DNA of 64,000 nucleotides from Escherichia coli. Its GTDB lineage: Bacteria; Pseudomonadota; Gammaproteobacteria; Enterobacterales; Enterobacteriaceae. The stretch is from assembly GCF_045037415.1 (NCBI RefSeq), contig NZ_CP173438.1, one strand, 5' to 3'. Made by a program: the position numbers. This document shows, piece by piece, positions 30,001 to 33,000 of this stretch; the stretch's first letter is position 1, and every line of letters starts with the position of its first letter.

Positions 30001-33000
30001 CTCATCTTTATGCGCCAGCAGGGATTTCTCCTGTACAGACAGCTGGCGACGTTGCGCCGCCTCCTCCAGTACCGCGAACTGACTCTCCGCCTTCCACAAA
30101 TCCCGGCGCTGCTGGCTGATTTTCTCATTTGCTCCGGCATGCTTCTCCAGCGTCCGGAGTTCAGCCTGAAGCGTCAGCAGGGCAGCATGAGCACTGTCTT
30201 CCTGACGATCGCCCGCAGACACCTTCACGCCGGACTGCTTCGGCTTTTTCAGTGTCGTTTCATAGTCCTTTTTCGCTGCCGCCATCAGCGTGTTGTAATC
30301 TGCCTGCAGGATTTTTCCGTCTTTCAGGGCCTTATTCAGTTCTTCCTGACGGGCGGCATATTTCTCCAGCGGCGTCTGCAGCCGTTCGTAAGCCTTCTGC
30401 GCCTCTTCGGTATATTTCAGCCGTGACGCTTCGGTATCGCTCTGCTGCTGCGCATTTTTGTCCTGTTGACTCTGCTGTTCAGCCTTCTTTCGGGCGGCTT
30501 CAAGCGCAAGACGGGCCTTTTCACGATCATCCCAGTAACGCGCCCGCGCTTCATCGTTAACAAAATAATCATCCTTGCGCAGATTCCAGATGTCGTCTGC
30601 TTTCTTAAACACAGCCTCTGCCTTAATCAGCATCTCCTGCGCGGTATCAGGACGACCAATATCCAGCACCGCATCCCACATGGATTTGAATGCCCGCGCA
30701 GTCCTGTCTGCCCAGGTCTCCAGCGTGCCCATGTTCTCTTTCAGGCGGCGGGTCTGGTCATCAAACCCTTTCGTTGCGGCCTCGTTCGCCGCCTGCAATG
30801 CCCCGGCTTCATCGCCGGAACGCTGCAACTGAGCAACATACGCAATCTGCTCCGCCGTCACGTTATGGAACTGGCGTGCCATCGCCGTCAGCCCCGACGT
30901 CGGGTCTGTGGTCAGCTTCCCGAAGGCTTCAGCGACCTTGTCCACCTCCACGCCGGATGCAGAGGAGAAACGCGCCACACTCTGGCTGATGGACGCAATC
31001 TGAGCCTCACCGCTTACCCCCGCCTTAACCAGTGCGCTGAGTGACTCGCTGGTCTGGTTAAACGTCAGCCCTGCCGCCTGCCCGGCTCTGGACAGGACCA
31101 GCATACGATCTGCCGTCAGACCCGCCTGATTGCCGGAAAGGACCAGCGTTTTGTTGAAATCGGACAGGGTTGAGTTGCCCTGATACCAGGCATACGCCAG
31201 CGCACCGGTCGCCACCGCCAGCGAGGTGGCCCCCACCATCGGCAGGGTGATCGCACCGGCAAGCCCCCTGAACATGGGGATCATCCCGCCGAAGGAGTCC
31301 TTCACCTGCCCCCCCTGTTGCAGCAGGATCAGCCACGGACTTTGCCCGCCTGCAAGCTGCGTGGCCACGTCGGTGAACTGTGCAGGCAGCATACGCATGG
31401 CGGCTTTATACTGCCCGACGGAAATCCCCGCTTTCTGTGCAGCCAGCGCCTGTCGGCTCAGCGACTGTTCAACGACTGCCGCTGTTTTTTTCGCATCACT
31501 TTCCGTACCGGAAAAATGACGCCTGACTCTGGCCATCTGCTCGTCAAATCTGGCCGCATCCAGACTCAAATCAACGACCAGATCGCCTACCGGTTCAGCC
31601 ATACCGGACTCCTCCTGCGATCCCTTCTGATACTGTCATCAGCATTACGTCATCCTCCGTCATGTCCGCCACATCCGGGGAAGCGGGGATAACTTCATTC
31701 CCGTCCGGGCCAAAGCGGACACCTCCGGCAAGCCCTGCCGCTTTCTGCATCAGCACATCATCTTCAGGCTCTTCGTCAGCCTCGCGCCGGTTCAGCAGAC
31801 TGAAATCCAGCGGATGCATATCCGGATCGCTGAAAAACAGGCTGAGCACGGTGTACGTCAGCCCGGAAAAGTGCATATCCAGCAGAACATCATGAAAATA
31901 ATGGGTACTGTAAAAGCGGTGCCAGTCGGCATACTCCGTGGATGACATCCCGGCAAGCATGGCACGCCAGTCGGGTCGCCCCATCTCACGCGCCAGTTTC
32001 AGGGCAAAACTCAGCTCACCGTCGAACACTTTCCCGCAGAAACAGGCTCTGCAGGCCCGGCGTCCTCTGCCTGTTCGGGGGCATTATTCACCACAAACTC
32101 ATACATACCGGACAGCCGGTACACCACGTTTTCAGCATGAGAAATTGCCTCTGTGGGCCAGGTGGTAAGCACTTCCTGCTCAATCTGTTTAACGGCTTCA
32201 TTCATGGACGGCATCTGCGTCTTCTTCGGATGGTTATGCCACAGGGACATCGCCACCAGAAACGCGCCGGTTCTGATGACGTCTTCCACAGTAACCTGCC
32301 GGTTGCTGTCGGATCCCGCCGGTTCTGCCTGCCGTTTCATCAGGGCAAGATGCTCAATACGCTGCAGGGCTGACAGTTCAGAAAGCGTGACGGTCACGCC
32401 GTTATATTCAAATGATTCGGTTTTCAGGAACATCGCTGACTCTCCGGATTAACTGGCGGTGACGGTGATTTCTGCAACCGCAGCAAACTCACCATTACCG
32501 GATACAACCGGAATGTTGACCTTGCCTGCAGCAACGCCGTTCACGGTGATGGTCATACCGCTGACCGACACGGTGGCTTTTGTTTTATCCGCAGACACCG
32601 CACGGAAGCTCTTGTCGGTTGCGCCCTCCGGCTGGAATGCCACGGTCAGCGTAGTGCTCTGCCCTTTCACTACGGAAGCACTGGCGGGTGTCACCGTCAT
32701 GCCGGTTGTCGCCGTCACCGTGCTGCGATCTTCTGCCATCGACGGACGTCCCACGTTGGTGACTTTCACCGTGCGGGTGATCACTTCCTTCGCCGTCACC
32801 GCCTTACCGATACTGCTGACCCAGCCGCGGAACACATCGACCGTGCCGTTCGGGAAGCGGATTTTATAGGCACGGGTATCCCCTTCATTAAACCACGCCA
32901 GCAGCGCCTGCTGCCCCTGCTCTCCGGGCATCCACGCCAGCGTGAAGCTGGTATCTCCGGCAGATTTCTGCCCCTGCCCGGTCGCAGTCCAGTCCGCATC

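What the first reader, a model, noticed from the sequence alone, without database searches (positions are those of the whole stretch)
32011..32037. Conserved G / G-T programmed -1 frameshift site
The slippery heptamer GGGAAAG lies 6 codons before the G stop, and the T frame opens exactly in the -1 frame, so the lambda tail-chaperone recoding mechanism is preserved.
Basis: partly seen in the sequence, partly recalled or inferred. Interest (0 to 1): 0.25.

Follow-up and report, generated by a model that had tools for sequence, protein, structure and literature searches.

The report
Lambda G/GT tail-chaperone frameshift site
This is the textbook phage-lambda "slippery" site that makes a few percent of ribosomes slip back one base to produce a fused tail-assembly protein; it sits unchanged in a lambda-like prophage of E. 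coli, so it is real but ordinary.

Summary
GGGAAAG lies at 32035..32029(-), phased G GGA AAG in gene G (32433..32011, 140 aa). AAG is the sixth codon before the G stop. The -1 frame continues open for 144 more codons to 31595.

G and the -1 segment pass the curated lambda G and lambda T models. They sit between V (tail tube) and H (tape measure).

From 17 nt upstream of the heptamer to the T stop, the DNA is base-for-base lambda (J02459). The predicted 279-aa GT fusion differs from lambda's at 8 residues, all in G.

In 78 of 79 related loci where the junction could be scored (G identity 99 to 68%), the in-phase heptamer is kept at the same distance from the G stop. The frame under purifying selection switches at the heptamer. 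The GTG "start" that databases give T has a background-level Shine-Dalgarno signal and is a non-start codon in 16 of 78 relatives.

The same stretch occurs in 3,658 of 5,426 complete E. coli genomes. The prophage late operon here is intact.

Verdict: already known (Levin 1993; Xu 2004, 2013). No stimulatory RNA structure is supported. Expression in this host is untested.

The parts
32011..32433 (-). Gene G, tail assembly chaperone gpG, 140 aa; the stop TGA is at 32013..32011
   Evidence: ORF and translation. PF06894 E 5.7e-59. TIGR01674 equivalog 210.7 bits. 94.3% aa identity to lambda G, 8 substitutions.
32440..32445 (-). Shine-Dalgarno GGAGAG, 6 nt upstream of the G ATG
   Evidence: Sequence read. 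Anti-SD duplex -6.6 kcal/mol against a background mean of -3.5.
32029..32035 (-). Slippery heptamer G GGA AAG (Gly-Lys in both frames)
   Evidence: It is the only in-phase X XXY YYZ in G. Invariant in the 25 distinct aligned sequences. Present in phase in 78 of 79 scorable loci.
32014..32083 (-). Overlap in which both the G frame and the -1 (T) frame are open (about 23 codons); a shift must happen here to join G to T
   Evidence: Upstream stop TAA in the T frame at 32086..32084 and G stop at 32013..32011. The overlap narrows to 10-12 codons in the divergent relatives, yet the heptamer is kept.
31595..32035 (-). T segment, read in the -1 frame from GGG AAA onward (146 codons plus stop); it forms the C-terminal domain of gpGT
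   Evidence: Translation. PF06223. TIGR01715 equivalog 189 bits. 100% identical to lambda T at both nucleotide and protein level.
31595..32433 (-). Predicted frameshift product gpGT, 279 aa: G residues 1-134 through Gly-Lys, then VFDGELSF...GGVRYG
   Evidence: Conceptual -1 shift at the heptamer. It differs from lambda gpGT at 8 positions, all in the G part.
29041..31602 (-). Gene H, tape measure protein, 853 aa; its ATG overlaps the T stop (ATGGCTGA) and has a strong SD (GGAGGAG)
   Evidence: PF06791 and PF09718. 99.1% identity to lambda H. SD duplex -10.3 kcal/mol.
32449..33189 (-). Gene V, major tail tube protein (246 aa from the lambda start at 33189; the mechanical ORF call begins at 33219)
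   Evidence: PF16461 and Big_2. 97.6% identity to lambda V over residues 1-246.
31951..32021 (-). Predicted branched mRNA structure starting 7 nt 3' of the heptamer; NOT supported as a functional element
   Evidence: MFE z-score -2.0, with 8 of 200 shuffles folding as well. No compensatory pairs, and the covariation score does not exceed the shuffles.

Best explanation
This is the phage-lambda G/GT programmed -1 ribosomal frameshift site, carried unchanged in a lambda-like prophage of an E. coli chromosome.

What happens (inferred here by identity to lambda): ribosomes translating the late mRNA start at the G ATG (32433). About 96% read G GGA AAG in frame and stop six codons after Gly, giving the 140-aa gpG. 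A few percent slip back one base while tRNA-Gly and tRNA-Lys occupy GGA and AAG. The tRNAs re-pair with GGG and AAA, and translation continues in the T frame to 31595. The product is the 279-aa gpGT.

Why the fixed low ratio matters (established knowledge, from the cited papers): gpG and the G part of gpGT coat the tape measure protein H. The T domain recruits the tube protein V. Both chaperones leave the finished tail.

Basis of each step: the sequence architecture, homology, conservation and selection pattern are shown here. The slip itself, its rate and the chaperone roles are inferred from nucleotide identity with lambda, where they were demonstrated.
For: (1) Phasing and open frames are as required.
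(2) G and T meet the Pfam and NCBI equivalog models for lambda G and T, and they are flanked by V and H.
(3) The G-T stretch has 17 nt differences from lambda J02459, all in G nt 28-381. From nt 382 (17 nt before the heptamer) to the T stop it is identical.
(4) In 79 related sequences with a complete G (76 IMG/VR loci, lambda, HK630 and Lambda_4C10; G identity 99 to 68%), 78 keep an in-phase GGGAAAG 7 codons (from GGA) before the G stop, even where the sequence just upstream is unrecognisable.
(5) The frame under purifying selection switches at the heptamer. Synonymous fractions of distinct substitutions, G frame against T frame, are: upstream 14/28 against 4/28; overlap 0/5 against 3/5; after the G stop 3/30 against 22/30.
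(6) T has no credible start of its own. The SD duplex for the annotated GTG is -3.4 kcal/mol, equal to the background mean of -3.46, while real starts in the operon score -5.9 to -11.3. The GTG is GTC, GCG or GCC in 16 of 78 relatives.
(7) Literature: a -1 shift at G_GGA_AAG; a gpG:gpGT ratio of about 30:1 that is crucial for tail assembly; about 96% of ribosomes staying in the zero frame; the rate restrained by 2-thiolation of tRNA-Lys U34 (PMC5009743; PMC3296357; PMC7618472).
(8) The late operon is intact. Nu1 to L are all full length at 94-100% identity to lambda.
Against: No direct evidence of expression or of the fusion protein exists for this prophage.

The prophage carries cargo between the replication genes and the nin/Q region: an inverse autotransporter, a hydrolase and an IS66 element. 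Its integrase end lies outside the window. Inducibility is therefore unknown.

One related locus (L064) has a 4-nt insertion that breaks the arrangement, which shows that copies can decay.

Public annotation (J02459, RefSeq CP023844) lists T as a separate CDS.
Confidence: 0.95

Rival explanations
1. T is an independent gene, translated from the GTG at 32029..32027 as a free 144-aa protein. This is how J02459 and RefSeq annotate it, and on this reading the heptamer is incidental.
For: Database annotation lists a separate T CDS beginning at that GTG. The mechanical ORF call also starts there.
Against: The SD duplex upstream of the GTG is -3.4 kcal/mol, the background mean. The GTG is replaced by non-start codons (GTC, GCG, GCC) in 16 of 78 relatives, while the heptamer is invariant. 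The T frame is already under purifying selection in the codons between the heptamer and the G stop. The reviews describe only gpG and the frameshift fusion gpGT as products (PMC5009743).
Confidence: 0.03
2. The fusion arises from RNA-polymerase (transcriptional) slippage on the G3/A3 runs, which would produce a -1 mRNA, rather than from ribosomal slippage.
For: None from this analysis. Transcriptional slippage does join overlapping frames in some bacterial and phage genes (review PMC5009743).
Against: The homopolymer runs are only 3 nt long. From my own knowledge, productive transcriptional slippage needs runs of roughly 6-9 or more A or T. The cited papers assign lambda G-T to ribosomal frameshifting that depends on tRNA-Lys anticodon modification (PMC3296357; PMC7618472).
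Confidence: 0.01
3. The site is a silent fossil. The recoding signal is intact, but the prophage is no longer inducible or its late operon is not expressed, so no gpGT is ever made in this host.
For: Foreign cargo and an IS66 element (49152..51683, absent from the otherwise 99.997%-identical CP023844) lie between the replication genes and Q. The integrase end is outside the window. E. coli genomes that carry this module hold a median of 2 places matching it, and many lambdoid prophages are defective (the last point is from my own knowledge).
Against: Every head and tail gene from Nu1 to L is full length at 94-100% identity to lambda. Q, holin, lysozyme, Rz and cos are present. There are no frame-disrupting mutations in G, T, V or H.
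Confidence: 0.2

Closest known systems
Bacteriophage lambda G/GT programmed -1 frameshift (Levin, Hendrix & Casjens 1993; Xu, Hendrix & Duda 2004, 2013, 2014)
   Same: Same heptamer and same phasing. The sequence is identical from 17 nt upstream of the heptamer through the T stop. The T domain is identical. The gene order V-G-T-H is the same, and so is the overlap of the T stop with the H start.
   Different: There are 8 amino-acid substitutions in the G part: Y10H, P38Q, G40E, Q46K, V47F, V52A, K70Q and A122T, written window residue > lambda residue. It resides in an E. coli chromosomal prophage at icd that carries sitABCD and iss, not in lambda itself.
Tail-assembly-chaperone frameshifts of other long-tailed phages (for example TP901-1, which also uses GGGAAAG; HK97, SPP1 and mycobacteriophages)
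   Same: Two overlapping ORFs lie between the major tail and tape measure genes. A low-level -1 shift at a heptamer near the end of the first ORF yields a fusion whose ratio to the short product matters (PMC4493119; PMC5009743).
   Different: Those systems share position and logic but little or no protein sequence similarity with lambda G/T. The present locus is a true sequence homologue of lambda, not merely an analogue.
E. coli dnaX -1 frameshift (A AAA AAG with an upstream internal SD and a downstream stem-loop)
   Same: A bacterial -1 shift in which the single tRNA-Lys (mnm5s2UUU) re-pairs from AAG to AAA (PMC5009743).
   Different: dnaX reaches about 50% efficiency with two stimulators. 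Here no internal SD is seen and no downstream structure is supported, which fits lambda's rate of about 4%.

Membership tests
Lambda-type G/GT tail assembly chaperone -1 PRF | Two overlapping ORFs located between the major tail tube gene and the tape measure gene | tested here: met
   V at 32449..33189, G at 32011..32433, T at 31595..32035 and H at 29041..31602, all on the minus strand.
Lambda-type G/GT tail assembly chaperone -1 PRF | [quoted passage not shown] | tested here: met
   G GGA AAG at 32035..32029(-). It is the only in-phase heptamer in G, and its AAG is the 6th codon before the stop.
Lambda-type G/GT tail assembly chaperone -1 PRF | The downstream ORF is in the -1 frame and is open from the shift site | tested here: met
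   146 codons without a stop from GGG; the frame is open from 32083.
Lambda-type G/GT tail assembly chaperone -1 PRF | The downstream ORF lacks its own translation initiation signals | tested here: met
   The SD duplex for the GTG is -3.4 kcal/mol, equal to background. The GTG is not conserved (16 of 78 relatives have GTC, GCG or GCC). This is a computational proxy only.
Lambda-type G/GT tail assembly chaperone -1 PRF | Sequence homology to lambda gpG and to the T domain | tested here: met
   PF06894 E 6e-59 and PF06223 E 2e-14. TIGR01674 at 211 bits and TIGR01715 at 189 bits, both equivalog models above their cutoffs. 94.3% and 100% identity to lambda.
Lambda-type G/GT tail assembly chaperone -1 PRF | Conservation of the shift site among relatives, with coding constraint switching frame at the site | tested here: met
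   78 of 79 scorable loci keep it. Synonymous-substitution fractions, G frame against T frame, switch from 14/28 against 4/28 upstream to 3/30 against 22/30 downstream.
Lambda-type G/GT tail assembly chaperone -1 PRF | The fusion protein gpGT is actually produced at a few percent of gpG | not testable with these tools
   Needs immunoblot or mass spectrometry. It is known for lambda, whose site is identical (PMC3296357, PMC5009743).
Lambda-type G/GT tail assembly chaperone -1 PRF | Both products are required for tail assembly and are absent from mature virions | not testable with these tools
   Genetic and biochemical property. It is reported for lambda in PMC5009743.
dnaX-type stimulated -1 PRF | An internal Shine-Dalgarno sequence about 10 nt upstream of the heptamer | tested here: not met
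   The 22 nt that end in the heptamer's GGGAAA (CAGAGCCTGTTTCTGCGGGAAA) give an anti-SD duplex at the background level of -3.4 kcal/mol. That upstream stretch is not conserved in the divergent relatives.
dnaX-type stimulated -1 PRF | A stable downstream stem-loop or pseudoknot 5-9 nt from the heptamer | tested here: inconclusive
   The predicted structure starts 7 nt downstream, with z = -2.0. There are no compensatory changes, and helices 2 and 4 are almost invariant, so covariation is uninformative.

The most novel reading that the evidence does not exclude
The nearly invariant 70 nt just 3' of the heptamer (32021..31951, about 98% column identity against about 89% upstream) may encode an mRNA structure as well as the T domain. 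Such a structure, starting 7 nt downstream, would tune the shift rate to the roughly 30:1 ratio. This would be a stimulator or attenuator that I have not seen described for lambda G-T in the papers I could read.
Probability: 0.08. Interest if true: 0.3.

Novelty: already known. Interest (0 to 1): 0.07.

Why it matters
It matters little as a discovery. This is one of the earliest and best characterised viral frameshift sites, and an identical or nearly identical copy is present in about two thirds of complete E. coli genomes.

Its practical value lies in annotation. RefSeq/PGAP and the lambda reference record still list T as a free-standing CDS with a GTG start, not as a ribosomal-slippage join. 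The real 279-aa gpGT product is therefore missing from most protein sets.

The intact site, together with an intact Nu1-to-J module, is also weak evidence that this sitABCD/iss-carrying prophage may still be able to build tails.

Tried and rejected
(1) Heptamer frequency as evidence. Rejected: there are 12 copies in the window against about 8 expected, so the motif alone means nothing. Only the context discriminates.

(2) A stimulatory RNA structure. The MFE fold has a marginal z-score of -2.0. Covariation counting on 25 distinct relatives gave 0 compensatory pairs and scores no better than shuffles. The upstream hairpin and the small downstream hairpin are broken in the divergent relatives. 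The structure is not supported, and the near-invariant helices do not allow it to be excluded.

(3) Independent initiation of T at the annotated GTG, or at the in-frame ATGs at 31984 and 31960. SD signals are at background and the GTG is not conserved. Rejected.

(4) An internal SD stimulator as in dnaX. None found.

(5) Reading Xu et al. 2013 (PMC3762263) for rates and flanking-sequence effects. The paper is not held, and one earlier query was malformed. A literature search for statements about stimulators at the lambda site returned only the general review.

(6) L064 as a possible alternative recoding arrangement. It is a 4-nt insertion that puts a stop in G upstream of the site, most simply a decayed copy or an assembly error.

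Full report
**1. Observation**

The late genes of this region are on the minus strand. Read on that strand, 32037..32011 is GCG GGA AAG TGT TCG ACG GTG AGC TGA, which translates to A G K C S T V S stop. This is the end of a 140-aa ORF at 32433..32011.

The heptamer GGGAAAG occupies 32035..32029, phased G GGA AAG.

In the -1 frame the same bases read GGG AAA GTG TTC GAC GGT GAG CTG. The frame stays open for 146 codons, to a stop at 31597..31595. That frame is closed by a TAA at 32086..32084. The two frames are therefore simultaneously open for only about 23 codons, and this overlap holds the only in-phase X XXY YYZ heptamer of the whole G gene.

The heptamer by itself is not statistically unusual: 12 copies in 64 kb against 7.9 +/- 3.0 in shuffles. 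Only this copy combines three things:
- a long upstream zero-frame ORF (138 codons);
- a stop 7 codons later;
- a long open -1 frame (146 codons).

**2. What the genes are**

| Gene | Window coordinates (-) | Evidence |
|---|---|---|
| G | 32433..32011 | Pfam Phage_TAC_2, "lambda tail assembly chaperone G", E 5.7e-59; NCBI equivalog TIGR01674, 210.7 bits, cutoff 74 |
| T (-1 segment) | 32035..31595 | Pfam Phage_tail_T, E 2.2e-14; NCBI equivalog TIGR01715, 189 bits, cutoff 77 |
| V | upstream of G | lambda tail tube protein, PF16461 plus Big_2 |
| H | downstream, ATG overlapping the T stop | 853-aa tape measure protein, PF06791 plus PF09718 |

Z and U lie further upstream.

**3. Relation to lambda**

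The 1.3-kb stretch is 97.5% identical to lambda J02459 at 9444-10744, and 98.5% identical to several Lambda-like isolates.

A base-by-base comparison of G through T shows 17 differences, all within G nt 28-381. From nt 382 (17 nt before the heptamer) to the T stop, 458 nt, there is no difference.

The conceptual fusion made by a -1 slip at the heptamer is 279 aa. It differs from lambda gpGT at 8 residues, all in the G part.

Every lambda head and tail protein from Nu1 to L is present at full length and 94-100% identity. T is 100% and G is 94.3%, the lowest of the set. K is 96%. I and J are more divergent (82-83%), and lom is absent.

**4. Host context**

Window 11400..49151 is 99.997% identical to the chromosome of E. 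coli strain 4/1-1 (CP023844). The prophage lies beside an icd fragment and sitABCD, and it carries iss.

The G-T stretch is present at 80% coverage or more in 3,658 of 5,426 complete E. coli genomes. RefSeq annotates "phage tail assembly chaperone G" and "phage tail assembly protein T" as two separate CDS, without a slippage join. The lambda reference record does the same.

**5. Comparative tests**

*Conservation of the site.* A scan of IMG/VR returned 80 loci with G identity from 99% to 68%. Together with lambda, HK630 and Lambda_4C10, 79 related sequences have a complete G. Of these, 78 keep an in-phase GGGAAAG at the same distance from the G stop.

This holds in the 68-71% identity group too. 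There the sequence immediately upstream is unrelated, and -1-frame stops narrow the overlap to 10-12 codons.

The exception, L064, has a 4-nt insertion about 40 nt upstream that places a TGA in the G frame. It is probably a decayed copy or an assembly error.

*Which frame is under selection.* The table gives the fraction of distinct substitutions among relatives that are synonymous in each frame.

| Region | Synonymous in G frame | Synonymous in T frame |
|---|---|---|
| 87 nt upstream of the heptamer | 14 of 28 | 4 of 28 |
| 18 nt between heptamer and G stop | 0 of 5 | 3 of 5 |
| 126 nt after the G stop | 3 of 30 | 22 of 30 |

So the T frame is already the constrained frame directly after the heptamer. 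This is what a frameshift fusion predicts.

**6. The rival in the databases: T as an independent gene**

The annotated GTG start at 32029 has an anti-Shine-Dalgarno duplex of -3.4 kcal/mol, equal to the background mean of -3.46. The starts of V, G, H, M, U and Z score -5.9 to -11.3.

In 16 of 78 relatives that codon is GTC, GCG or GCC, none of which can initiate, while the heptamer is invariant. I reject independent initiation.

Transcriptional slippage is implausible on runs of three bases (my own knowledge). The cited papers attribute the lambda event to the ribosome and to tRNA-Lys modification (PMC3296357).

**7. Mechanism**

The mechanism is inferred from nucleotide identity with lambda and taken from the literature.

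- A small fraction of ribosomes slip -1 on G_GGA_AAG. G_GGA_AAG is among the shift-prone heptamers in E. coli, because its single tRNA-Lys (mnm5s2UUU) decodes both AAG and AAA (PMC5009743).
- About 96% of ribosomes stay in frame. Loss of U34 thiolation raises frameshifting and lowers phage yield (PMC3296357; PMC7618472).
[quoted passage not shown] G domains bind the tape measure protein, the T domain recruits gpV, and neither product is in the virion (PMC5009743; PMC4493119).

**8. Stimulatory elements**

An MFE fold predicts a branched structure at 32021..31951, beginning 7 nt 3' of the heptamer. Its z-score is only -2.0, with 8 of 200 shuffles folding as well.

On 25 distinct relatives no pair shows a compensatory change, and scores do not exceed the shuffles. 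Two of the four helices are broken in the divergent group. The other two are nearly invariant, which is uninformative.

No internal SD is present upstream. The absence of strong stimulators fits a low-efficiency site. The high nucleotide conservation just downstream (about 98% against about 89% upstream) is most simply explained by protein constraint on T plus recent mosaic exchange.

**9. Verdict**

The feature is the already known lambda G/GT recoding site in one of its most common genomic settings.

What remains untested is whether this prophage is expressed. It carries cargo genes and an IS66 insertion between the replication genes and Q, and its integrase end lies outside the window.

Interest is low. 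The only practical point is that public annotation omits the fusion product.

Noticed in passing
window 31595..32029 (-); J02459 10115..10549; CP023844 1285020..1285454: Public records annotate T as a free-standing 144-aa CDS starting at a GTG inside the heptamer region, with no ribosomal-slippage join. The real 279-aa gpGT is therefore absent from the derived protein sets. HK630 labels the CDS 'GT' but uses the same coordinates.
   Followed up: yes
window 32053..32406 (-) against 31595..32052 (-): All 17 nucleotide differences from lambda in G-T fall in G nt 28-381, and the following 458 nt are identical. G (94.3%) is the least conserved and T (100%) the most conserved of the Nu1-to-L proteins. 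This looks like a mosaic recombination boundary inside G.
   Followed up: partly
L064 about 2860..2925: One IMG/VR relative has a 4-nt insertion about 40 nt upstream of the heptamer. G then ends at a TGA, and T falls in the same frame as G but behind that stop. It is likely a decayed prophage copy or an assembly error.
   Followed up: partly
L010, L039, L054 (T frame downstream of the match): Some relatives have shortened T frames (98, 124 and 134 codons after the G stop, against 139). L039 carries an internal deletion shortly after the shift site. It is not known whether these are functional variants or decay.
   Followed up: no
window 49152..51683: An IS66-family element (537-aa transposase at 49182..50795, minus strand) is inserted here relative to the otherwise 99.997%-identical E. 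coli 4/1-1 chromosome. It lies between an alpha/beta hydrolase gene and an inverse-autotransporter gene inside the prophage.
   Followed up: partly
window 51744..55652 (-): A 1,302-aa intimin-like inverse autotransporter adhesin sits inside the prophage, between the replication genes and the nin/Q region. Overlapping BLAST pieces against CP023844 suggest a different copy number of an internal repeat.
   Followed up: no
window about 14900..20434: sitABCD (iron/manganese ABC transporter, 16985..20434, plus strand) and an icd fragment (about 14904..15071) lie just beyond the tail-fibre end of the prophage. This suggests integration at icd with sit as adjacent cargo. An iss (bor-like serum-survival lipoprotein) gene lies after Rz at about 43713..44006.
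   Followed up: no
window 21107..23134 (-): A contiguous 675-aa side-tail-fibre ORF has a 'phage head spike fiber' domain (NF048003) at residues 331-525, and its first 110 residues resemble lambda orf-401. PGAP splits the same sequence in CP023844 into two 'partial' pseudogene pieces. It may be a chimeric fibre.
   Followed up: no
window 31951..32021 (-): A predicted branched mRNA structure begins 7 nt downstream of the heptamer (z = -2.0). Covariation gives it no support, and the region is too conserved to decide.
   Followed up: yes
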